Source: a virus. From it: DNA of 64,000 bases. The translations under genes and the position numbers were made by a program. Under the pieces are notes generated by a model, which worked only from the letters and a program-made list of their open reading frames with translations, searched no databases and was not told where the DNA came from. The DNA is taken from the IMG/VR virus record IMGVR_UViG_3300046542_000086, positions 17,696-81,695 of that record; one strand, 5' to 3'. This document shows positions 55,409 to 64,000 of this stretch, in pieces (the stretch's first letter is position 1; each line of letters begins with the position of its first letter).

Positions 55409-55511
55409 GGCTAAATTCTCTTGAAGGGCGGAACACGAGCCGGGTAATAGTATGGTGCGTATTCTTTTACAGGCAACTATAACATTCGCTGTTTTCACAG
55501 GAGTCATCGGT

Positions 55512-57995
55512 ATGGCGACAACCTATACTTACCCATTTGACCCTACTGGTGCTGCGACAACTAACGCCGTTGCTAACGAGCGACACGTGTTGTCCCCACC
55601 AGCATGGAAGGACTTTTACTTCATAGTCCCTAAGTTTGCCCCTTACTTCCGGGACTCGTTGCGGGTGATCCATCGCCCGTCAGGTAAGCTCCTCGTCGAA
55701 GGTAAGGATTACCATTGCACTCACTACTTCCACGCAGCTTCTCACGGCGTGGCACGGCGAGTGTACGGTTCAATCACGATGCTCGACAAGACGCTGATCG
55801 GTGTCCTCGAGATCAACTACCAAACCCTCGGCGGTGACTGGGTACTGGATGCGTCGGCTGACTTGACTCGTCTGACCAACACGCTGACCAACCCTCGGAT
55901 TACTACGTGGGAAGAAGTGGTTGATGTTCCATACCAGTTCCCTCCTATTGATCACCAGTGGGACCTCGAAGACCTCAAGGGCGTTGAAGCCATCCTTCCG
56001 ATTCTGGAATCGATGACTGAAGCAATCCGCGACTCGGCTGGTTCTTCGTTTGCATTGCACATCGCTGACAAAGCGAACCCTCACTCGGTAACGAAAGACC
56101 AAGTGGGACTTGACCAAGTTCAGAACTTACCCATTGCGAATATTTCAGAGGCCAACGCTGGTACTCTCAATACTCGTTACATGACGCCTGTTCGCACCAA
56201 GAACTTCGTTGACGCCTACGTCGTACCGTTGCTCGAAACCCACAAAGCGGACTTGAACAACCCTCACGGGACGACCAAGACGCAAGTGGGTCTGGGCTTG
56301 GTTGAGAACTTCAGCATCGCTTCACAAGCAGAAGCTGAGACGGGTAGTGCGACTAACCGTTACATGACTCCGTTGGCGGTTAAGCAAGCCATTAACATGT
56401 TGGCGAACACCGGCCTGTCTACGCACTTGGCAGACATCAACAACCCACACCAAACCACCAAAGCTCAAGTGGGCCTCGGTAGTGTGGAGAACTTGCCGGT
56501 AGCGACGACTGCTGAGGCTGAGGCCGCTGCACGTAACGACCGCTACATGACTCCACTGGCAACCGCTAAGCAGATCCAGGTCTTGGTCAAAGACTCGATG
56601 GACTTGCACTTGAACGCGGTGAACAACCCCCACTTGACCACCAAGGCTCAGGTAGGGTTGGGTAACGTTCAGAACTACCTGACCGCCACTCAAGCAGAAG
56701 CCGAAGCTGGCTTGATCACCACTGCGTACATGACGCCGTTGATGACTCGTAAAGCGATCGAAGCGATTGCTACTGGTTCCATCGGTTCTCACTTGGCTGA
56801 CAGTAACAACCCCCACGCTACGACTAAAGCGCAGGTAGGTCTCAGTAACGTAGAGAACTACACCATCGCTAACACCACAGAAGCTCAGGTGGGGGATTCC
56901 AATACCCGCTATATGACCCCTCTGTTGGTAAAGGCGGCGATTGATGCACAAGTGGGTACTGGGGTGTCTGGTCACGTTAGTGCTGTGAACAACCCGCACC
57001 AAGTGACTGCTGTTCAAGTCGGTACGTACGCTTCGGGTACTCTGGACACCATGTTCGCTGCTAAGCTGGGTACTCTGGCTATGGCTGCTGATTCGGCTGG
57101 TCTGGAAGGACACACCTACGAGGACGTGTTGGTAGCTGCGAAGAGTCAAGGGACTTTGAACTCGGATAAACTGGGTAACCAAACTCTCGCTCAAGTACTG
57201 GCTTCCGCTAAGGCTCAGACCGCTGATAACTCCACGCTACTCGGCGGCAAGACGGCAACTCAGATCGGTGACGAACTGGTAGCGGCTCTGGCTTACACCA
57301 AGCAACTACGTGTGCCTGACTACGCCATCGCTAACGATGCCACTAACAAGTGGATTCCACTGTGTAAAGCGTCCCCAGTGGTCAACATCGACACCGATGA
57401 CCTATGCATCATGTTCAACGGTCTGAACGAGGTCAGTGGTCGGACCATCACCGGCATCATTGACCTGAACACTACCGCTCTGACGTCGTCTGTTACGATC
57501 CTGTCGGGACACGTCACGGACTTGGAGATCTTGTACACGAACGTCGGCGGTGTATTCCGACTGTGGTACAAAACCAATGCCAACGAACTGTCGACCACGA
57601 CCTTGACGCTGATCTCTGGTAAGTCCTTCACTGAGATTGATCCAGCAGCGGTGGTGTCTGCTACAGCTCCGGCTGGTGCAGTGCTGATCCCAATGGTTGC
57701 CGTTGCTCCTAAACGGATCGCCTCAGAGTTCGTCACGCTGGCTGCTGCTGCTAACAAAGAGTACGACCTGCAAACGTTGCTGGGTGCCAGTCACGCAGCT
57801 TACGACAAAGACGGTGCTCTGGTTCAGGTGCGTGTGAAAGACGTACAGGCAGGTTCGCCTACGCTTAACATGTACATCACTCCTCCTGCTGGCGTTGTCA
57901 CCGCTCTGCGGGCTAACCGGTATGTTCGGGTGTTGAACTCTACTGCTGCTTCGGTAGATCTCCAAATCCGTGTAGACGTACCCCGTCTTCCATAA
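55512..57995 (+). CDS. tail fibre protein with NPH/YMTP repeats
   Basis: AGGAG RBS; N-terminal YPFDPTG...FAPYF attachment domain; 5 full and 1 partial ~61-aa repeats; distinct C-terminal domain. Confidence 0.8.
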   Translation: MATTYTYPFDPTGAATTNAVANERHVLSPPAWKDFYFIVPKFAPYFRDSLRVIHRPSGKLLVEGKDYHCTHYFHAASHGVARRVYGSITMLDKTLIGVLEINYQTLGGDWVLDASADLTRLTNTLTNPRITTWEEVVDVPYQFPPIDHQWDLEDLKGVEAILPILESMTEAIRDSAGSSFALHIADKANPHSVTKDQVGLDQVQNLPIANISEANAGTLNTRYMTPVRTKNFVDAYVVPLLETHKADLNNPHGTTKTQVGLGLVENFSIASQAEAETGSATNRYMTPLAVKQAINMLANTGLSTHLADINNPHQTTKAQVGLGSVENLPVATTAEAEAAARNDRYMTPLATAKQIQVLVKDSMDLHLNAVNNPHLTTKAQVGLGNVQNYLTATQAEAEAGLITTAYMTPLMTRKAIEAIATGSIGSHLADSNNPHATTKAQVGLSNVENYTIANTTEAQVGDSNTRYMTPLLVKAAIDAQVGTGVSGHVSAVNNPHQVTAVQVGTYASGTLDTMFAAKLGTLAMAADSAGLEGHTYEDVLVAAKSQGTLNSDKLGNQTLAQVLASAKAQTADNSTLLGGKTATQIGDELVAALAYTKQLRVPDYAIANDATNKWIPLCKASPVVNIDTDDLCIMFNGLNEVSGRTITGIIDLNTTALTSSVTILSGHVTDLEILYTNVGGVFRLWYKTNANELSTTTLTLISGKSFTEIDPAAVVSATAPAGAVLIPMVAVAPKRIASEFVTLAAAANKEYDLQTLLGASHAAYDKDGALVQVRVKDVQAGSPTLNMYITPPAGVVTALRANRYVRVLNSTAASVDLQIRVDVPRLP
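56058..57023 (+). repeat. tandem ~183-bp coding repeats (H-x5-NPH-x2-TKAQVGLG-x-V-x-N...EA-x-AG...YMTP)
   Basis: Read directly from the translation. Confidence 0.9.
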
Positions 57996-58008
57996 GGAAT
58001 AGGTAATC

Positions 58009-59634
58009 ATGGGCACAATCATTCTTAAGTACCCAGAAGACCCTACTGGGGTAAACCCGAACAACCTGGTCATCAACGAACCTCACGACTTGGGTCCTGC
58101 TCGTAACCGAGCATTCGTTCCCAACTACGGCTCTTACTTCACAGAGTCGATGATTGTTACTGAGGCGGTGACCGGTCGGGTGCTCACCAAGGGTGTTCAC
58201 TACATCGCTGCACAACTGCAACAAGACGCCACGCTGGCGATGGACAAAGAGATTTGTGCCGTCGTCGTGGTGATCGATGAAAACGTGCGGGACTCGTTGC
58301 TGTTCACTTACCAAGTTGTTGGTGGTGTGTTCAGTACTTCGGCTGCTGCACTGGCGACGTTGATTGAAGCGTTGGACATTGACGAACGTGAAGTAGAGTG
58401 GGGTGGCTTGATCGGCATCCCTACCGCGTTCCCACCAGCGCCTCACCTCCACGACATCGGCGACGTCTACGGTTTCGAGTATCTGGTTGAAGCCCTCGAT
58501 GCTCTGCGTAACGCTATCTTGATTGGTGATGAATCAGCGCACGATGAACTGCGTCAGTACATCAACTACCAAGACGGTTTGGCGATTGCATCGATTGCTG
58601 ACCTGCGTGCTGACTTTGAAGGACACGAGAACAGCCGTAATAACCCACACGCTGTGAACAAGACACAAGTTGGCTTGGGTAGTGTGCAGGACTACGGCAT
58701 CGCGACCACTCAGGAAGCACAAGCGGGCATCGTCAACAACAAGTACATGACTCCGTTGCGTACTTACGAGGCGATCATCCAGTTGACCACTGGTCCGTTG
58801 AACGCTCACTTGACGAACATGTCGAACCCACACCAAACCACTAAGGCTCAGGTAGGGTTGGGGGTAGTCGAGAACTATCAACCATCGACACAAGCTGAAG
58901 CGGAAGCAGGGACACGACCAGATCGGTACATGACCCCGCTGACGACTAAGCAGGCGATCACGCTGCAAGCGATCACTCCGCTCAACAACCACATCAACAA
59001 CGTGAACAACCCACACGCCACTACTAAAGCCCAAGTTGGTTTGGGTAGCGTATTGGATTACGGGATTGCGTTGCAGAACGAAGCAGAAGCCGGTACCTCG
59101 AACCTGAAGTACATGACTCCTCTGCGAACTGCGAACGCGATTGCGGTGTTGGCTGTAGCTCCGTTGAACACACACATCGCTAACGTCAACAACCCGCATG
59201 CTACTACCAAGGCGCAAGTGGGTCTGGGGAACGTACAAGACTTACCATTGGCTACTTCGGCTGAAGCTATCGCAGGTGCGTCGAATGCCCGCTATATGAC
59301 TCCTGTCACTACGGCGAACGCAATCAACTCACAGATCATTGTAGCTTTCAACGCCCACACCGGTAACCTGTCGAACCCCCACGCTACGACTAAAGCGCAG
59401 GTTGGCTTGAGTGCCATTCCTAACGCTATCACTCGTTCTCGTGCGTTGAACAGCGATGCTTCGTTGTTGACTGCTGGTGGTATGTACGACCACACCATCT
59501 CTCTCGACCACGATGCTCGCTACGCTCCAAAGAACATGGCGGGTGTTGACTGTTCGGTACATTGGAACGGGGCTGGTGTGTTTGTTTGGGGCGGTGGTGC
59601 TTGGCGTCAAGTCTGGCCTGCTCAGTGGTCCTAA
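58009..59634 (+). CDS. second tail fibre protein with NPH/YMTP repeats
   Basis: Paralogous N-terminus (YPEDPTG); 4 full and 1 partial repeats; short Trp-rich C-terminus. Confidence 0.8.
   Translation: MGTIILKYPEDPTGVNPNNLVINEPHDLGPARNRAFVPNYGSYFTESMIVTEAVTGRVLTKGVHYIAAQLQQDATLAMDKEICAVVVVIDENVRDSLLFTYQVVGGVFSTSAAALATLIEALDIDEREVEWGGLIGIPTAFPPAPHLHDIGDVYGFEYLVEALDALRNAILIGDESAHDELRQYINYQDGLAIASIADLRADFEGHENSRNNPHAVNKTQVGLGSVQDYGIATTQEAQAGIVNNKYMTPLRTYEAIIQLTTGPLNAHLTNMSNPHQTTKAQVGLGVVENYQPSTQAEAEAGTRPDRYMTPLTTKQAITLQAITPLNNHINNVNNPHATTKAQVGLGSVLDYGIALQNEAEAGTSNLKYMTPLRTANAIAVLAVAPLNTHIANVNNPHATTKAQVGLGNVQDLPLATSAEAIAGASNARYMTPVTTANAINSQIIVAFNAHTGNLSNPHATTKAQVGLSAIPNAITRSRALNSDASLLTAGGMYDHTISLDHDARYAPKNMAGVDCSVHWNGAGVFVWGGGAWRQVWPAQWS
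58624..59424 (+). repeat. tandem ~183-bp coding repeats, same family as 56058-57023
   Basis: Read directly from the translation. Confidence 0.9.
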
Positions 59635-59656: not shown

Positions 59657-59669
59657 AATGGTATAGTTA
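59657..59669 (+). promoter_or_regulatory. candidate late promoter motif AATGGTATAGTTA upstream of the cupin/radical SAM operon
   Basis: Same 13-mer as 8501-8513 (minus strand). Confidence 0.5.
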
Positions 59670-59692
59670 ATTACCAGCCCTTGGGGGTCGAG

Positions 59693-60202
59693 ATGTTGAA
59701 ACTAATAAACGACTTCACTTTTGATGGCATCACCGAAGCCAGTCTCAAACTGGACGACGTGTTAGCCAGCCCTTTCTTCTACGAGCAAGGGTTAGTGAAG
59801 TACGTGCTACTCGGCCAGTCTCACGATGCCTACAACCCGTGGGACTATATACAGAACTCTGCGAGCGTCTTTAAGATTGAAGGCTTTGAAAGATTCAGCT
59901 TAAAGATGTTCGACGAGTGCCGTTATTTGGCAGAACATTACAAACACCATGGTGCGATAACTTGCCATGTGTTTAAGTCCCCTAAGGGGGCAAAGAGTTT
60001 CCCTGAACACACTGATCCTGACGACGTGGTCCTGTACATGGTCAGTGGACAGAAAGAGTTCGTACATGACGGTGGCGTCTTGACCCTACATGAGGGAGAG
60101 ATCCTTTTGATCCCCGCTGGCACCAGACACCGTGCCGTCAACACTGAAGCTTCGGTTATGCTGAGCTTTGGGTTGGAGCGCTTCTTAGTTGAGAAACTGT
60201 AA
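59693..60202 (+). CDS. JmjC/cupin-family Fe(II)/2-oxoglutarate oxygenase
   Basis: SFPEHTDPDDV (HxD), SGQKEF, GEILLIPAGTRHRA (distal His), LSFG. Confidence 0.82.
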   Translation: MLKLINDFTFDGITEASLKLDDVLASPFFYEQGLVKYVLLGQSHDAYNPWDYIQNSASVFKIEGFERFSLKMFDECRYLAEHYKHHGAITCHVFKSPKGAKSFPEHTDPDDVVLYMVSGQKEFVHDGGVLTLHEGEILLIPAGTRHRAVNTEASVMLSFGLERFLVEKL

Positions 60203-61236
60203 TGGGTAAGACGATCTACGTTAAGACTACCGGTGCGTGTAACCTTGCTTGCAAACACTGCTTCACCAACGGCAAAGACGGCGATAAAACTCAGTTCGAT
60301 CCCGTGCAAGTAGGGGATTGGATTGAGGACTATATGTCCCGTCATCCAGCAGGCACAGACTACCACCTAGAGTTCCATGGTGGCGAACCGTTTCTTGTGC
60401 CGTTAGAAAAGCTAGAGGTTTTGGCCTCTCGGTTCCACGAGCGTGAAGGCGTAGGGATGTGTGCGAACTCTAACCTGACCTTCAAGATTACCCCAGAGCA
60501 CGTGGCGTTCATCCAGAAGTACTTCTACGGCCACATTGGTACGAGTTGGGATCACTGGATCAGGTGGAGCAACCAGAAACAGTTTGACCTCTGGTGTAGC
60601 AACCTTGCGTTACTCCGTGGGGAAGGGATCTCGATCTACCTCAAGGTGTCGGTGAGTCGTGAACTACTGAAGATGGCTCCGGATTGGTTCTTGGACCAGA
60701 TCGAGTTCTTCGGAGTGAAGGAAGTTTCACTGGAGCGCTTAACGTTGGATGGTAGTGCCAATGAAAACTTGGACATCTTCCCTGACAACGAAGCCCAAGA
60801 CAACTGGTACCTTGCCCTCTACCAACGTTATAAAGAACGTAAAGGTACGGTAAAGATCCGCACCCTCGACATCATCGAGCAGAAGCTCAAGTACGGCATC
60901 GTTAAGGTAGACACCAACTGTCGCAACTGTGAGCAGAACCTCGTCACCATCAACTCTAACGGTGCTCTCGGGGGTTGTCCTAACGTTGCCACTACTCGAC
61001 AGCACTCCCGGTTGGAACAAGGTGCTGAGGCCTTCATTAAGTCTGATGGTCGGGTTGAAGAAATCGCCCAAGAGTTGACGTGGAACGAGAACTGCATTAC
61101 CTGCGACGTGTCTGACTTGTGTGGGGGCGACTGTCACCGTCTACCGTGGCAAGGGAATCGTTGTGGGGGACTGAAGAATACTTTGAGACACTTATCCGGT
61201 CGTTCACAACAGACCAACTTAATTTTGAAGGTGTGA
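60202..61236 (+). CDS. radical SAM enzyme with SPASM-type auxiliary Fe-S domain
   Basis: CNLACKHC, FHGGEP; C-terminal CRNC...GCPN...CITC-x5-C-x3-C...C. Confidence 0.92.
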   Translation: MGKTIYVKTTGACNLACKHCFTNGKDGDKTQFDPVQVGDWIEDYMSRHPAGTDYHLEFHGGEPFLVPLEKLEVLASRFHEREGVGMCANSNLTFKITPEHVAFIQKYFYGHIGTSWDHWIRWSNQKQFDLWCSNLALLRGEGISIYLKVSVSRELLKMAPDWFLDQIEFFGVKEVSLERLTLDGSANENLDIFPDNEAQDNWYLALYQRYKERKGTVKIRTLDIIEQKLKYGIVKVDTNCRNCEQNLVTINSNGALGGCPNVATTRQHSRLEQGAEAFIKSDGRVEEIAQELTWNENCITCDVSDLCGGDCHRLPWQGNRCGGLKNTLRHLSGRSQQTNLILKV

Positions 61237-61237
61237 C

Positions 61238-61789
61238 ATGGCAAACGTAACTAAAGCTAGTGTACTCGAGCGGGCTAACGCTTGGCTCGCGGGTAACGGT
61301 AACGCAGGTATCTCGTGGGGTACGAACAACTACCCTGCCGGTGCTCTCGCTGGTTGGTTCGGTGGTACTACTGGCGGTGTGGCTGCGATGGCTGCCAACT
61401 CGTTCAGTGACGGTAATGCCAATGCTGCCTCGTTGGCTGCTGCCCTGCGAGCCTTCACCAACACCTTTGCCGCAATCCGCTTGACCCGCATTGTGATCTA
61501 CTATGCCAACAACACGGGTGAAGACTACGTCAACGCATTCAACACTGTGCAGTATGACGGTACAGCGATTGCTCACACGGCGTACTCGGTGGGTAACATC
61601 GGTGCTGGGGTCTCTCTCCCGGGCATGGTTGCTAACCAGAACCTGAACTACGCCAACCTCGAGGCGTCCTGTTCGAACCTGTGGTCCAGTTACTACAACA
61701 ACTGCCGTACTAACGCTCTGACATTGGTTAACACCGTATGTCACAGCAGCTGCCACGACAACTGCCACTGTGCACGCGGTCGTCGTTAA
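61238..61789 (+). CDS. Asn/Ala/Gly-rich protein with C-terminal Cys-His repeat; putative substrate or virion adhesin
   Basis: Ends VCHSSCHDNCHCARGRR; structural-gene-like codon bias; lies 1 nt after the rSAM stop. Confidence 0.7.
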   Translation: MANVTKASVLERANAWLAGNGNAGISWGTNNYPAGALAGWFGGTTGGVAAMAANSFSDGNANAASLAAALRAFTNTFAAIRLTRIVIYYANNTGEDYVNAFNTVQYDGTAIAHTAYSVGNIGAGVSLPGMVANQNLNYANLEASCSNLWSSYYNNCRTNALTLVNTVCHSSCHDNCHCARGRR

Positions 61790-61800
61790 AGGAGTTTCCC

Positions 61801-62532
61801 GTGGAAAAGATTCACTGTACTGCCCCGATTGGTTTGGCTGAACTGAAACGTAAGTTCACTGAAGACGTCGAGTTTGTGATCGACTACGACAACTCGCGCT
61901 TCAAAGGTAAGACGCTGATCACTTACCTCAGTAACTTGGACATCCAAGTCCGTCTGGACCTGAAAGACCCAGAAGCGATTCAGGTACTCCTCGCTGACTA
62001 CTTGAACATGTCGGCTATGGTCAAGATCGCTGACCTCGAAGAACTGGCGATGAACGTATTGCTAGCCTTCTGTCAAAAGCCTTACGTGTTGCCGTTTGAT
62101 TCGGCACCGTTCATTCAGGCTAACCGCGACATCCTGGACGTCTGGACTCGTCGACTGCAATCTCTGCCGTTGTACGCAATCCACACGATGGGGGAAAAGT
62201 ATCACGACTACGTTTTCAGTTTCCCTGAAGACCGTGATGACTCGGTAGTGGGTCTGAACTTCGTGAACCTGATCAAGCTCCCGATGTTTGCTGTGCTGAT
62301 CGCTGGTGTAGAAGAAACCGCCTACACTTGGAATAAAACCTTCTTTACCGACTACGTGTTTGGCGGTAACAACCTGTTCAACTACTTCGCCGTGAAAGAG
62401 AACCCGCTGTTCATTGGTGTACTGGCGTTGCAAGACCAGGCCTCCTTTGACTCAGTGGTACCTCAGTTGATCGCAGCTGAAGCTGACGCAGAACGTCAGT
62501 TCAAGGAGCTTACACATGTACCATCTGTTTAA
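61801..62532 (+). CDS. hypothetical protein of the radical SAM operon
   Basis: AAGGAG RBS before GTG 61801 (MEKIHCTAPI). Confidence 0.75.
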   Translation: MEKIHCTAPIGLAELKRKFTEDVEFVIDYDNSRFKGKTLITYLSNLDIQVRLDLKDPEAIQVLLADYLNMSAMVKIADLEELAMNVLLAFCQKPYVLPFDSAPFIQANRDILDVWTRRLQSLPLYAIHTMGEKYHDYVFSFPEDRDDSVVGLNFVNLIKLPMFAVLIAGVEETAYTWNKTFFTDYVFGGNNLFNYFAVKENPLFIGVLALQDQASFDSVVPQLIAAEADAERQFKELTHVPSV

Positions 62533-63571
62533 CTCGGTGTACGTCGACACTGAACGCCGGGTTAACCGGGCGGTCAGCAACATCACTATCTCGAAACACA
62601 TCGGCTTTGAGTATCACCCAGGGCCGAATGAACAAGCGGGTGAGCAGATTGGCTTTGCTCAGTCGTTGGATGACGTAGAACCTCGCGTCCTGTTGGCTTG
62701 GCTGACACTGGCGATGCAGCAGGAAGAAAAAGTATTCATCTACTGCGATGGCGAAACGTATGTACGACTGTATTCCTTGCTCGTGCGTACCGTCTTCCCG
62801 AACCTTGACCTGCTGACCTACAAGTGGATCATGCTCTGCAAGAAGGCTACGTTGCACACCTCACTCACCAACTGGAAACAGGCTGGCTGTGAAGTACTGG
62901 CTGGCGTAGAGCTGAACACTGCAACCATCACTGCGTCGTTCGAGAACCCAGATCCACTGACGTCGATGTTCAAAGAACTGCTGTCTACTGACCGTGACGT
63001 TCTGTCGTTGGAATGGCAACTGGTTCGTCTGATGGCTGAAGGTACGGTAGGTTGCATCCCTGCTCGTCTGAAGAACATCCTGCGTCGTATCGCTTTGGCG
63101 AACACTCACGATGCGCTGGACGTTTGGGGTCGTGTGATTACCGATCCTCAGCACTGGGAATTCGCTGGTGCTGACCTCGACACGCTGTTGGATGCTCCTT
63201 CGGTGTTTGAAGGTTGTATGTTGTTCCAGTACACCAACAACCGGATGTTCCTCAAACCCGGTACGTTGGAGAAGACTCCGAAAGACAACTGGTTGATCGG
63301 TCTGCTGCGTGAACTTGATCCACTGCTCGAACGTGTCGGCGAACCTGCGACGGCCAAACGGACTCGTCTGATTCTTGAGATGTTGGAATCGGAAGACGAT
63401 CTGAATGACCCAGCTGTGCTGCTGGAACGCGTCAAGCAGATGTTCCTCGGACCAGATCGTTTGGCTCTGCCTAACCGGGACTCGAGCAAGTACGACGAGA
63501 ACCTGATCCGCTACCTGTTGGGTCGTTCGGACATTGACCTAGCTTATTACCTAGAAGGGGCTACATGGTGA
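62516..63571 (+). CDS. hypothetical protein of the radical SAM operon
   Basis: AAGGAG RBS; overlaps both neighbours. Confidence 0.75.
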   Translation: MYHLFNSVYVDTERRVNRAVSNITISKHIGFEYHPGPNEQAGEQIGFAQSLDDVEPRVLLAWLTLAMQQEEKVFIYCDGETYVRLYSLLVRTVFPNLDLLTYKWIMLCKKATLHTSLTNWKQAGCEVLAGVELNTATITASFENPDPLTSMFKELLSTDRDVLSLEWQLVRLMAEGTVGCIPARLKNILRRIALANTHDALDVWGRVITDPQHWEFAGADLDTLLDAPSVFEGCMLFQYTNNRMFLKPGTLEKTPKDNWLIGLLRELDPLLERVGEPATAKRTRLILEMLESEDDLNDPAVLLERVKQMFLGPDRLALPNRDSSKYDENLIRYLLGRSDIDLAYYLEGATW

Positions 63572-64000
63572 ATCTGATACCGTTGGTTGACATACTCCAA
63601 GAGAAGAAAGGCGATACCAAAGAAGCACACCTGATTCTCTTTGAGAAGTGTAACCTTCGGTGTTCGTTCTGCCATCAGGATCATGACTCTGAAGTTGGCT
63701 TGGATGCTGGGGACATAATGCGCAAGGGCTTGAAGCTGATTGCTGAGAGTGACCTTGAAGCTCCCATCGTGATCAACATCACTGGTGGGGAGTTGTTCTC
63801 AGATAACATCGAGGACTGGGTGTTCGGCTACTACTTGTCGTTAGGACAGTTGTTGCTGAAGAACTTCAAGCGGGCTAAGTTGGTCTGGGGTACAAACCTG
63901 ATCTACAGTGATCTCTGGCGAGTAATGCGGTTGATCAGCATGTTGCGGGCTGGGGCTACCAAAGACCAGACCGTGTGCTTGGCAACGTCGTACGATCCAG
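63565..64000 (+). CDS. second radical SAM enzyme, N-terminal part (runs off the window; not in the ORF track)
   Basis: Manual translation: MVNLIPLVDILQEKKGDTKEAHLILFEKCNLRCSFCHQDH...INITGGELF...WGTNL...ATSYDP. Confidence 0.88.
   Translation, partial: MVNLIPLVDILQEKKGDTKEAHLILFEKCNLRCSFCHQDHDSEVGLDAGDIMRKGLKLIAESDLEAPIVINITGGELFSDNIEDWVFGYYLSLGQLLLKNFKRAKLVWGTNLIYSDLWRVMRLISMLRAGATKDQTVCLATSYDP

What the first reader, a model, noticed from the sequence alone, without database searches (positions are those of the whole stretch)
59657..64000. Phage-encoded RiPP-like modification operon (JmjC oxygenase, two radical SAM enzymes, Cys/His-tailed protein) next to the tail fibres
Seen: six co-oriented genes with overlapping or nearly abutting stops and starts. 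They encode an HxD...H JmjC/cupin, a CxxxCxxC radical SAM with an 8-Cys SPASM-type tail, a 183-aa protein ending CHSSCHDNCHCARGRR, two unknowns, and a second CxxxCxxC/GGE radical SAM missed by the ORF track. Established: rSAM-SPASM enzymes commonly crosslink peptides (Cys thioethers in sacti- and ranthipeptides; aromatic-x-x cyclophanes in triceptides, including His-x-Ser/Ala types), and ribosomal-oxygenase-type JmjC enzymes hydroxylate His or Arg in proteins. Inference: this is a dedicated post-translational maturation pathway whose substrate is the 183-aa protein, probably a virion or fibre-tip component rather than a secreted peptide. I know of no characterised phage pathway of this kind, although radical SAM genes are annotated in some jumbo phages.
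Basis: partly seen in the sequence, partly recalled or inferred. Interest (0 to 1): 0.92.

Follow-up and report, generated by a model that had tools for sequence, protein, structure and literature searches.

The report
Radical-SAM matured Cys-His-tailed phage fibre protein
A small jumbo-phage protein ending in an invariant Cys-His repeat tail is always encoded with about six radical-SAM enzymes and several iron oxygenases beside the tail-fibre genes, predatory Bdellovibrio-type bacteria carry the same gene set, and it is most likely an undescribed pathway that chemically modifies a particle-surface protein.

Summary
Window 59693-64000 holds six co-oriented, abutting genes: a JmjC-type cupin (HxD...H plus Lys), a radical-SAM/SPASM enzyme, a 183-aa protein ending CHSSCHDNCHCARGRR, two proteins of unknown family, and the start of a second radical-SAM gene cut by the contig end.

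The block is half of a larger module. Thirty of 31 related jumbo-phage contigs carry one copy each of the tailed protein, both unknowns and six radical-SAM families, followed by 2OG oxygenases. Phages pPa_SNUABM_DT01, RSL2 and Atu_ph07 have it too.

The tail (C-H-x-x)n-R-G-R-R is conserved at the amino-acid level in all of them. A DNA pattern for the tail found the same gene set in chromosomes of Bdellovibrionota, often beside fibre genes.

Published proteomics detect the Atu_ph07 homologue (gp170) in particles but none of the enzymes. One phage homologue carries a fibre-type S74 chaperone after its Cys-His array.

My reading is enzymatic maturation of a fibre-associated virion protein. The chemistry is unshown, and I found no paper describing the system. 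The closest analogues are the HXS system and anSME.

An earlier agent of this scan reached the same reading on other DNA.

The parts
55512..57995 (+). Tail-fibre protein 1 (context). It has tandem ~60-aa NNPH..TTKAQVGLG repeats. The ORF opens at 55452; the likely start is the ATG at 55512.
   Evidence: PHROG 2163/13857 tail or virion protein, E 1e-136 or better. 45% identical to DT01 gp69.
58009..59634 (+). Tail-fibre protein 2 (context), a paralogue of fibre 1.
   Evidence: PHROG 2163, E 4.7e-154. 44% identical to DT01 gp68.
59693..60202 (+). Small JmjC-type cupin, a probable Fe(II)/2OG oxygenase.
   Evidence: Cupin_2 46.5 bits and JmjC_2 32.1 bits. Invariant H-x-D...H plus Lys in 35 homologues. 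RBS and ATG seen.
60202..61236 (+). Radical-SAM/SPASM enzyme, family r1. No N-terminal recognition domain; anSME-like architecture.
   Evidence: CxxxCxxC at 13-20 plus 8 conserved C-terminal Cys. Radical_SAM and SPASM domain cut-offs are reached. The family profile matches anSME 4K36-4K39 over its full length, E 4e-13.
61238..61789 (+). p183: a folded alpha/beta domain (residues 1-168) plus a flexible tail. It is the proposed substrate and a virion component.
   Evidence: AF2 mean pLDDT 86.7, tail 50-53. No PDB fold match. Structural and sequence homologue of Atu_ph07 gp170, which is found in particles.
61739..61786 (+). Tail CHSSCHDNCHCARGRR, i.e. (C-H-x-x)3 followed by RGRR at the C-terminus.
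   Evidence: A Cys-His array is present in all 33 phage loci that were found through rSAM1 rather than through the tail. Both Cys codons, both His codons and all six Arg codons are used among 72 distinct tails. The array is expanded to more than 10 units in L009 and L024.
61801..62532 (+). p264 (243 aa from GTG 61801): a system-specific protein of unknown fold, possibly a scaffold or recognition partner.
   Evidence: AGGAG-N6-GTG start. AF2 pLDDT 93.5 with no PDB match. PHROG 20767. 597 clusters in 1.84 billion representative proteins. Always found next to the tailed protein.
62516..63571 (+). p351: a second system-specific protein of unknown family.
   Evidence: No Pfam, NCBIfam or PDB match, alone or as a profile. 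Unrelated to the radical-SAM families by hhalign. Co-occurs with the tailed protein in phages and bacteria.
63565..64000 (+). N-terminal 145 aa of radical-SAM/SPASM enzyme family r2, cut by the contig end.
   Evidence: CNLRCSFC motif. 56% identical to DT01 gp62. Full-length relatives have 7 conserved C-terminal Cys.

Best explanation
The six genes are the first half of a conserved module of about 13 genes that matures a fibre-associated virion protein.

The substrate is p183. Its N-terminal 168 residues form a folded domain that acts as the handle. Its flexible C-terminal tail, (Cys-His-x-x)n-Arg-Gly-Arg-Arg, is the site of chemistry.

In the infected cytoplasm, four SPASM/twitch radical-SAM enzymes (r1-r4) act on the tail. 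In most phages two further divergent ones (r5, r6) act too, together with a JmjC-type cupin and 2OG oxygenases. Likely reactions are Cys-derived crosslinks or Cys oxidation, and/or ring crosslinks or hydroxylation of His or Arg.

The enzymes have no recognition domain of their own. The two system-specific proteins p264 and p351 are therefore proposed to hold or present the substrate.

The modified protein is then built into the particle at or near the fibres, where the tail is exposed. Predatory Bdellovibrionota use the same module beside their own fibre genes.

Shown: gene content, co-occurrence, tail conservation, enzyme class, and particle association of one homologue. Inferred: that p183 is the substrate, the roles of p264 and p351, every chemical step, and the function at the cell surface.
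For: 1. Strict co-occurrence. 30 of 31 full-length IMG/VR loci have exactly one each of p183, p264, p351 and r1-r6. The order is the same in DT01, RSL2 and Atu_ph07.

2. A search for the tail alone in 185,579 species genomes returned 47 stretches; about 38 (all but eight low-complexity hits) are true tails (72 distinct tail DNA sequences in all loci plus the window). Nearly all sit next to r1-r6, p264, p351 and cupin homologues. Several lie on 1.3-2.8 Mb Bdellovibrionota contigs flanked by housekeeping genes.

3. The Cys and His positions and the RxRR end are kept while the rest of the protein drifts to about 25% identity. Codons vary synonymously. Array length varies from 2 to more than 10 units, as expected for an iteratively processed site.

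4. All six radical-SAM families carry auxiliary-cluster Cys motifs. r1-r4 best match peptide or protein maturases and anSME.

5. Atu_ph07 gp170 (31.89 kDa, the p183 homologue) was detected in particles with 8 peptides and 35% coverage. The neighbouring enzymes were not detected (PMC6102473 Table S5; masses recomputed).

6. The L032 homologue is domain + (CHxS)4 + linker + Peptidase_S74 intramolecular chaperone, at 44.8 bits against a cut-off of 22. To my knowledge this domain occurs in trimeric fibres and spikes.

7. S74 fibre genes lie within 8 kb of the cluster in at least 6 Bdellovibrionota loci.

8. There is a precedent for a protein-sized radical-SAM substrate with His-x-Ser repeats: HxsA (PMC13128918).
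Against: - No mass-spectrometric or biochemical evidence for any modification exists.
- The Atu_ph07 preparation was PEG-purified and also contained RecA-like, SSB, RNR and terminase proteins, so particle association is not proof of a structural role.
- gp170 peaked in the top gel band, but the loading buffer listed contains no reductant. Disulfides could explain that.
- A Cys3His3 tail is also a plausible metal or Fe-S site with no modification at all.
- No leader peptidase and no RRE/PqqD-like domain was found.
- p264 and p351 have no recognisable fold or catalytic residues, so their proposed role is a guess.
- The window itself holds only two of the six radical-SAM genes.
Confidence: 0.55

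Rival explanations
1. The Cys-His tail is a metal or iron-sulfur binding site of a trimeric fibre or tip protein and is not itself modified. The radical-SAM enzymes and oxygenases act on something else, such as the fibres or another virion protein, or merely co-reside.
For: The tail is Cys3His3 with small polar spacers. Array length is variable, as in metal-binding tails. The S74 fusion implies a trimer in which three tails meet. From my own knowledge, not checked here: fibre and tip proteins with His-bound iron (T4 gp37), Fe-S (lambda gpL) or Zn (PAAR) are known. AF2 leaves the tail unstructured as a monomer.
Against: This does not explain why the tailed gene is always embedded among 2-6 SPASM/twitch enzymes, directly after r1 with a 1-nt gap. 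It also does not explain why a search for the tail alone recovers the enzymes. No other conserved candidate substrate is present in the module.
Confidence: 0.2
2. p183 is a carrier. Its tail is modified and then cut off to give a small peptide-derived product, either a cofactor as in PQQ or mycofactocin, or a toxin or metallophore. That product, not the protein, is the active agent.
For: The chemistry site is C-terminal, as in MftA and PqqA. Many tailoring enzymes are present. Mycofactocin and PqqE models appear among the weak hits. The basic RGRR end could be a processing or export mark.
Against: No peptidase, transporter or immunity gene is conserved in the module. The folded 168-residue domain is conserved and the whole protein is detected in particles. 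In L032 the array is followed by a fibre chaperone, not a release site for a small peptide.
Confidence: 0.1
3. p183 is a dedicated Fe-S or metal carrier or helper that supplies clusters to the many cluster-hungry radical-SAM enzymes. Their real substrate is elsewhere.
For: Six enzymes with 2-3 clusters each need many clusters. Marine phages with many radical-SAM genes also carry Fe-S assembly genes (PMC5332604). The tail is rich in Cys and His.
Against: Detection in particles without the enzymes. The S74 fibre-chaperone fusion. No similarity to IscU, NfuA or ATC scaffolds.
Confidence: 0.07
4. The enzymes make a modified nucleotide or DNA base, or another small metabolite. The link to the fibre genes is accidental.
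For: Weak N-terminal matches to viperin, MoaA and QueE models. RSL2 has a dihydrofolate reductase gene inside the array.
Against: Those matches cover only the shared radical-SAM core and lie far below the family cut-offs. Full-length matches are to SPASM maturases and anSME. No nucleotide-metabolism gene is conserved in the module. The module is tied to the tailed protein in phages and bacteria alike.
Confidence: 0.03

Closest known systems
HXS antiphage system (HxsA matured by radical-SAM HxsB/HxsC with HxsD; Li et al. 2026, PMC13128918)
   Same: The substrate is protein-sized: a folded domain plus short tandem His-containing repeats. It is matured by more than one radical-SAM enzyme together with a small non-enzymatic partner. 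The modified motif S-H-R-S-S has the same i, i+1, i+4 pattern as C-H-x-x-C here. The product acts at the cell envelope.
   Different: None of the proteins here reaches the Hxs models: HxsC scores 18-23 bits against a cut-off of 268, and HxsA, HxsB and HxsD give no hit. Here every unit has a Cys and the tail ends in RGRR. There are 4-6 radical-SAM enzymes plus oxygenases instead of two enzymes. The carrier is a phage or predator rather than a defending host. There is no signal peptide or peptidoglycan-binding domain.
Anaerobic sulfatase-maturing enzyme (anSME) acting on sulfatases
   Same: It is the closest solved structure to family r1, matching over its full length at E 4e-13. It has the same architecture: no recognition domain, and a SPASM domain with two auxiliary clusters. 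It acts on a whole protein. The last tail unit, C-H-x-x-R, has Arg at +4, as in the sulfatase motif C-x-P-x-R.
   Different: The score is far below the family cut-off: 42 bits in the window and 71 bits in a bacterial homologue, against 349. Position +2 is Gly, Ser, Cys or Thr, not Pro or Ala. No sulfatase domain is present. Formylglycine formation here is only a conjecture.
QhpD/QhpC, ranthipeptide (PapB), sactipeptide (CteB) and triceptide (YhhB, FxsB, AmcB) maturases
   Same: These are SPASM radical-SAM enzymes that crosslink Cys or aromatic residues in short repeated motifs. They are the best NCBIfam neighbours of r1. The H-x-[S/N/A] triplets fit the three-residue cyclophane pattern.
   Different: All scores are an order of magnitude below the cut-offs (for example PapB 46 against 340, YhhB 39 against 445). 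There is no short leader peptide, no RRE and no export or protease genes. The substrate is a virion protein.
Metal sites in phage fibre and tip proteins (T4 gp37 His-Fe, lambda gpL Fe-S, PAAR Zn). From my own knowledge, not checked here.
   Same: Cys/His-rich motifs at the distal end of trimeric tail proteins. The S74 chaperone fusion places the array at a mature C-terminal tip.
   Different: To my knowledge those sites need no dedicated enzymes. Here the motif is inseparable from a large enzyme set.

Membership tests
Radical SAM superfamily (PF04055) | CxxxCxxC cluster motif and the Pfam gathering score | tested here: met
   rSAM1 scores 29.7 bits against 29.5, with C13/C17/C20 invariant. The rSAM2 fragment has CNLRCSFC but scores only 18.8 bits because it is cut.
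SPASM domain (TIGR04085) | C-terminal 7-8 Cys motif for two auxiliary 4Fe-4S clusters; domain cut-off 27 bits | tested here: met
   27.5 bits. Eight conserved Cys in r1, seven in r2, eight in r3.
Anaerobic sulfatase maturase (TIGR03942) | Equivalog score of at least 349 bits | tested here: not met
   42.4 bits for the window protein and 71 bits for a Bdellovibrionota homologue. Only the architecture is shared.
Anaerobic sulfatase maturase (TIGR03942) | Substrate motif C/S-x-P/A-x-R | tested here: inconclusive
   The last unit is C-H-[G/S/C/T]-[S/A/N]-R. Arg at +4 is always present, but Pro or Ala at +2 is not.
HXS system (HxsA/B/C/D; TIGR03976-03979) | HxsC and HxsB equivalog scores; an HxsA His-Xaa-Ser repeat protein; HxsD | tested here: not met
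   HxsC scores 19.5, 18.4, 23.3 and 19.3 bits against a cut-off of 267.9. HxsA, HxsB and HxsD give no hit at E 0.1 or better.
Ranthipeptide, triceptide and sactipeptide maturases (PapB, YhhB, FxsB, AmcB, AlbA) | Family cut-off scores; a short precursor with a leader; usually an RRE domain | tested here: not met
   PapB 46.2 against 340, YhhB 39.4 against 445, FxsB 34.2 against 370, AmcB 36.5 against 425. The cluster motif starts at residue 13, which leaves no room for an RRE.
JmjC / cupin Fe(II)-2OG oxygenases | Double-stranded beta-helix with an HxD/E...H triad and a 2OG-binding basic residue | tested here: met
   Cupin_2 46.5 bits and JmjC_2 32.1 bits, both above cut-off. H106, D108, H146 and K121 are invariant. 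2OG use itself was not tested.
Trimeric fibre/spike proteins with a Peptidase_S74 intramolecular chaperone | C-terminal S74 domain starting at S-D-x-R-x-K | tested here: not met
   The window protein ends in RGRR and has no S74 domain. The homologue in L032 has one (44.8 bits against 22, starting at SDERLK). The link is therefore by homology only.
RiPP (ribosomally made, modified and released peptide) | Leader/core precursor, proteolytic release of the core, export | tested here: inconclusive
   No peptidase or transporter was recognised in the module. The full-size homologue is seen in particles. Two proteins remain of unknown function.
Known antiphage defence systems (PADLOC) | A match to a defence-system model | tested here: not met
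   Only weak N-terminal radical-SAM core matches to pVip. Nothing for p183, p264, p351 or the cupin.

The most novel reading that the evidence does not exclude
Jumbo phages and predatory Bdellovibrionota share an ancient 'attack-organ' maturation system. About ten iron enzymes would convert the Cys-His tail of a fibre-tip protein into a covalently crosslinked, possibly metal-binding or chemically reactive (for example aldehyde- or thioether-bearing) structure. That structure would be needed to bind or breach the Gram-negative envelope. This would be the first enzymatically built chemical warhead on a virus particle.
Probability: 0.25. Interest if true: 0.95.

Novelty: new variant of a known kind. 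Interest (0 to 1): 0.85.

Why it matters
Post-translational chemistry on phage particles is almost unexplored.

If the reading is true, a whole clade of 220-280 kb phages spends about 12 kb on radical and oxygenase enzymes to finish one small particle protein. The clade includes phages of Pseudomonas, Ralstonia, Burkholderia, Agrobacterium and Sinorhizobium. Predatory bacteria that also attack Gram-negative cells from outside keep the same kit beside their fibres.

This would open several things:
- new radical-SAM chemistry on Cys-His motifs, with six enzyme families that have no specific family model above cut-off in Pfam or NCBIfam;
- two proteins of new fold;
- a new determinant of adsorption or host range for phages already proposed for biocontrol;
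- an evolutionary link between phage tails and predator adhesins.

It is directly testable because cultured phages carry the module.

Tried and rejected
- Nucleotide-level search of phage records found nothing.
- Fold searches gave no convincing match for p183 (Foldseek PDB, and VIA-align with best Z 4.1) or for p264 (best Z 4.5, over 55 residues only).
- Profile searches of p264, p351 and r5/r6 against PDB sequences gave nothing usable.
- Scanning every p351 homologue against Pfam gave only scattered single hits.
- hhalign shows p183, p264 and p351 are not degenerate radical-SAM proteins.
- The ESM Atlas gave no lead for p351 and could not read p264.
- PADLOC gave only core radical-SAM matches to pVip.
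- Long forms of p264 (391-604 aa) were checked for a fusion to the tailed protein. They carry only acidic, Pro-rich N-terminal extensions.
- The RP12/RP31 supplementary tables do not show which ORFs were detected in particles.
- No RNA holder was listed among public runs. The only full holder is a rhizosphere metagenome that may be the source of this DNA.
- A c-type haem motif (overlapping CxxxCH) was considered and rejected. The overlaps share cysteines, and assembly is cytoplasmic with no signal peptide.
- The 'band 1' migration of gp170 was considered as evidence for covalent crosslinks and rejected. The loading buffer listed has no reductant.

Full report
**What is in the window**

The window is the last 64 kb of an 81.7-kb virus contig. 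After two paralogous tail-fibre genes (55512-57995 and 58009-59634; PHROG tail and virion families) come six + strand genes with overlapping or abutting ends.

- Cupin, 169 aa, 59693-60202.
- rSAM1, 60202-61236.
- p183, 61238-61789.
- p264, whose real start is probably GTG 61801 behind AGGAG.
- p351, 62516-63571.
- rSAM2, 63565 onward, cut by the contig end.

The cupin passes Cupin_2 and JmjC_2. It keeps H-x-D...H and a Lys in all 35 homologues.

rSAM1 has CxxxCxxC and eight conserved C-terminal Cys. It reaches the Radical_SAM and SPASM cut-offs.

p183 ends CHSSCHDNCHCARGRR. No other CH..CH motif exists in the window.

p183, p264 and p351 have no Pfam or NCBIfam family.

**The block is half of a larger, very conserved module**

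Protein searches found the same order in several places.

- Pseudomonas phage pPa_SNUABM_DT01, gp67 to gp56.
- Ralstonia and Burkholderia RSL2-like phages.
- Agrobacterium phage Atu_ph07 and Sinorhizobium phage Phosso.
- 31 IMG/VR contigs, mostly 220-277 kb.

The full order is: spike, a minus-strand gene, fibre 1, fibre 2, cupin, r1, p183, p264, p351, r2, r3, r4, r5, r6, then three or four 2OG-Fe(II) oxygenases (PF13640, PF13759).

A census with family HMMs gave exactly one copy each of p183, p264, p351 and r1-r6 in 30 of 31 full-length IMG/VR loci.

All six radical-SAM families keep CxxxCxxC plus auxiliary-cluster cysteines.

- r1 and r3 have eight; r2 has seven; r4 has five.
- r5 and r6 have four. 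They are paralogues of each other and only distantly related to r2.

r1-r4 best match SPASM peptide or protein maturases, all far below family cut-offs. The r1 profile matches anSME structures over their full length, E 4e-13.

**The tail is the conserved feature of p183**

The 33 phage loci were recruited through rSAM1, so they are independent of the tail. Every p183 homologue among them carries a Cys-His array.

- 31 end (C-H-x-x)2-3 or more, followed by R-[G/S]-R-R and a stop.
- L009 and L024 have expanded arrays of more than ten CHSS/CHSN units.
- L032 and L033 have four units and no RGRR.

Elsewhere the proteins fall to about 25% identity.

Among 72 distinct tail DNA sequences, both Cys codons, both His codons and all six Arg codons are used. 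The free positions are small and polar, giving the consensus C-H-[ST]-S-C-H-[SG]-[SN]-C-H-[GS]-[SA]-R-G-R-R.

AlphaFold gives a confident alpha/beta domain for residues 1-168 and a low-confidence tail. That domain has no match among solved structures. It does match the DT01 and Atu_ph07 homologues in the viral model library.

**The same system is in predatory bacteria**

A degenerate DNA pattern for (CHxx)3-RxRR-stop was scanned over one genome of each of 185,579 species. It gave 47 loci, and about 38 are true tails on proteins of 130-315 aa.

- Most are Bdellovibrionota: Bdellovibrio, Pseudobdellovibrio, Bacteriovoracaceae and Halobacteriovoraceae.
- Several lie on contigs of 1.3-2.8 Mb.
- In nearly all, the neighbours are homologues of r1-r6, p264, p351, the cupin and a small protein that follows r6 in phages.
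- In one genome the flanks are housekeeping genes (serine dehydratase, a lytic transglycosylase) and a 413-aa protein with a Peptidase_S74 fibre chaperone.
- S74 fibre genes lie within 8 kb in at least six such loci.

The p264 profile found the system in 17 of 401 sampled genomes of that phylum, once each. It found 597 clusters among 1.84 billion representative proteins.

In a p264 tree, the DT01-like phages and some marine contigs form one side and the Bdellovibrionota the other. RSL2 and Atu_ph07 sit on long branches among the Bdellovibrionota. I draw no direction of transfer from this.

Some 'bacterial' hits are probably phage DNA in bins or assemblies (see the passing notes).

**Evidence that p183 is a particle or fibre protein**

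- The Atu_ph07 paper lists gp170 among proteins found in particles by ESI-MS/MS: 31.89 kDa, 8 unique peptides, 35% coverage. It does not list gp165, 168, 169, 171 or 172 (PMC6102473 Table S5).
- I recomputed the masses of the annotated proteins. gp170, gp176 and gp177 match exactly, so the numbering is the same.
- gp170 is the p183 homologue by position, tail, tblastn and fold.
- The L032 homologue continues after its four CH units with GDSPGTGDGTD and a Peptidase_S74 domain starting at SDERLK.

To my knowledge, not checked here, the S74 domain is an auto-cleaving chaperone of trimeric fibres and spikes. That would leave the Cys-His array at the mature C-terminal tip.

Caveats:
- The Atu_ph07 preparation also contained clearly non-structural proteins.
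- The loading buffer listed had no reductant. I therefore do not use the peak of gp170 in the top gel band as evidence for crosslinks.

**Most likely mechanism**

p183 is made in the cytoplasm. No signal peptide is seen in phage or bacterial forms.

Its tail is then processed by the radical-SAM enzymes and oxygenases. These enzymes lack an N-terminal recognition domain, because the cluster motif starts at residue 11-30. The two system-specific proteins p264 and p351 are therefore the best candidates for substrate presentation. p264 has a confident new fold with no conserved His, Cys or acidic residues.

Comparative hints:
- The clade without RGRR (L032, L033) keeps only r1 and r3. So r1 and r3 probably act on the CH units, and r2 and r4 go with the RxRR end. 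This rests on one clade only.
- r5 and r6 are dispensable in Atu_ph07 and some bacteria.

Candidate chemistries, all inferred:
- Cys thioethers, as made by QhpD, PapB and CteB.
- Cys to formylglycine at the last unit. Its C-x-x-x-R spacing recalls the anSME motif.
- His-x-[S/N/A] ring crosslinks, as in triceptides or HxsA.
- Hydroxylation of His or Arg by the JmjC-type cupin.

**Comparison with what is known**

Papers on these phages only list the genes as 'accessory'. A marine virome paper noted up to 12 radical-SAM genes in a T4-like genome without assigning a function. I found no paper that describes the system.

The closest characterised analogue is the HXS antiphage system. There a protein effector with His-x-Ser repeats is matured by two radical-SAM enzymes and a small partner, with a +8 Da change on S-H-R-S-S (PMC13128918). 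Membership fails on every Hxs model.

I used it as a lead and checked it myself.

**Verdict**

This is a real, strongly conserved and undescribed system. The chemistry and the function at the cell surface are open.

Noticed in passing
window 55512-59634: Both fibre proteins carry five or six tandem ~60-aa repeats with the motif NNPH-x-TTKAQVGLG-x-V-x-N ... EAEAG ... RYMTP. They hit more than 25 PHROG tail and fibre families but no Pfam family.
   Followed up: partly
L009 11034-11717; L024 11036-11740; L065: In some phages the Cys-His array is expanded to more than ten CHSS/CHSN units with NVPV or NVV spacers. This points to slippage-type length variation of the tail.
   Followed up: partly
L065 (Dysosmobacter segnis BX15, 4.3-kb contig); P0014 (Streptomyces sp. 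CHB9.2, 241.7-kb contig): Isolate assemblies contain contigs nearly identical to, or the size of, jumbo phages that carry this module. They are probably phage DNA or contamination rather than host genes.
   Followed up: no
L045, L046, L083, L070, L075, L078: Contigs binned as Marinovum, Rickettsiales, 'Methanobacteriota', Bacilli and Flavobacteriaceae carry the module. In the p264 tree, L045, L046 and L083 group with phages, so these bins probably contain mis-binned large marine phages. A TARA T4-like genome with 12 radical-SAM genes is mentioned in PMC5332604.
   Followed up: partly
L054, L064, L081 (Rhodobacteraceae bin): Two tandem short (125-140 aa) Cys-His-tailed genes directly follow a gene for a protein of about 2,000 aa with no Pfam family, and precede an r5/r6-like enzyme.
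   Followed up: no
L002 14042-14578 (RSL2 ORF073): A dihydrofolate reductase gene sits inside the radical-SAM array of RSL2.
   Followed up: no
L044 4286-6124; L089 1869-8933: In Bdellovibrionota the module can neighbour a B12-binding radical-SAM protein (613 aa). It can also neighbour a 2,355-aa protein with Big_2 and RCC1 repeats, which looks like an adhesin.
   Followed up: no
P0125, P0132, P0138, P0139, P0142, P0151: Long forms of the p264 family (390-600 aa) carry acidic, Pro-rich N-terminal extensions of unknown function.
   Followed up: partly
BFVD hits A0A8S5USJ8, A0A8S5USJ7, A0A8S5USV2 (Myoviridae sp. ctijX18): Three 504-660 aa phage proteins contain a p183-like domain by fold (Foldseek probability 0.99-1.0). 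This suggests the domain also occurs inside larger, possibly fibre, proteins.
   Followed up: no
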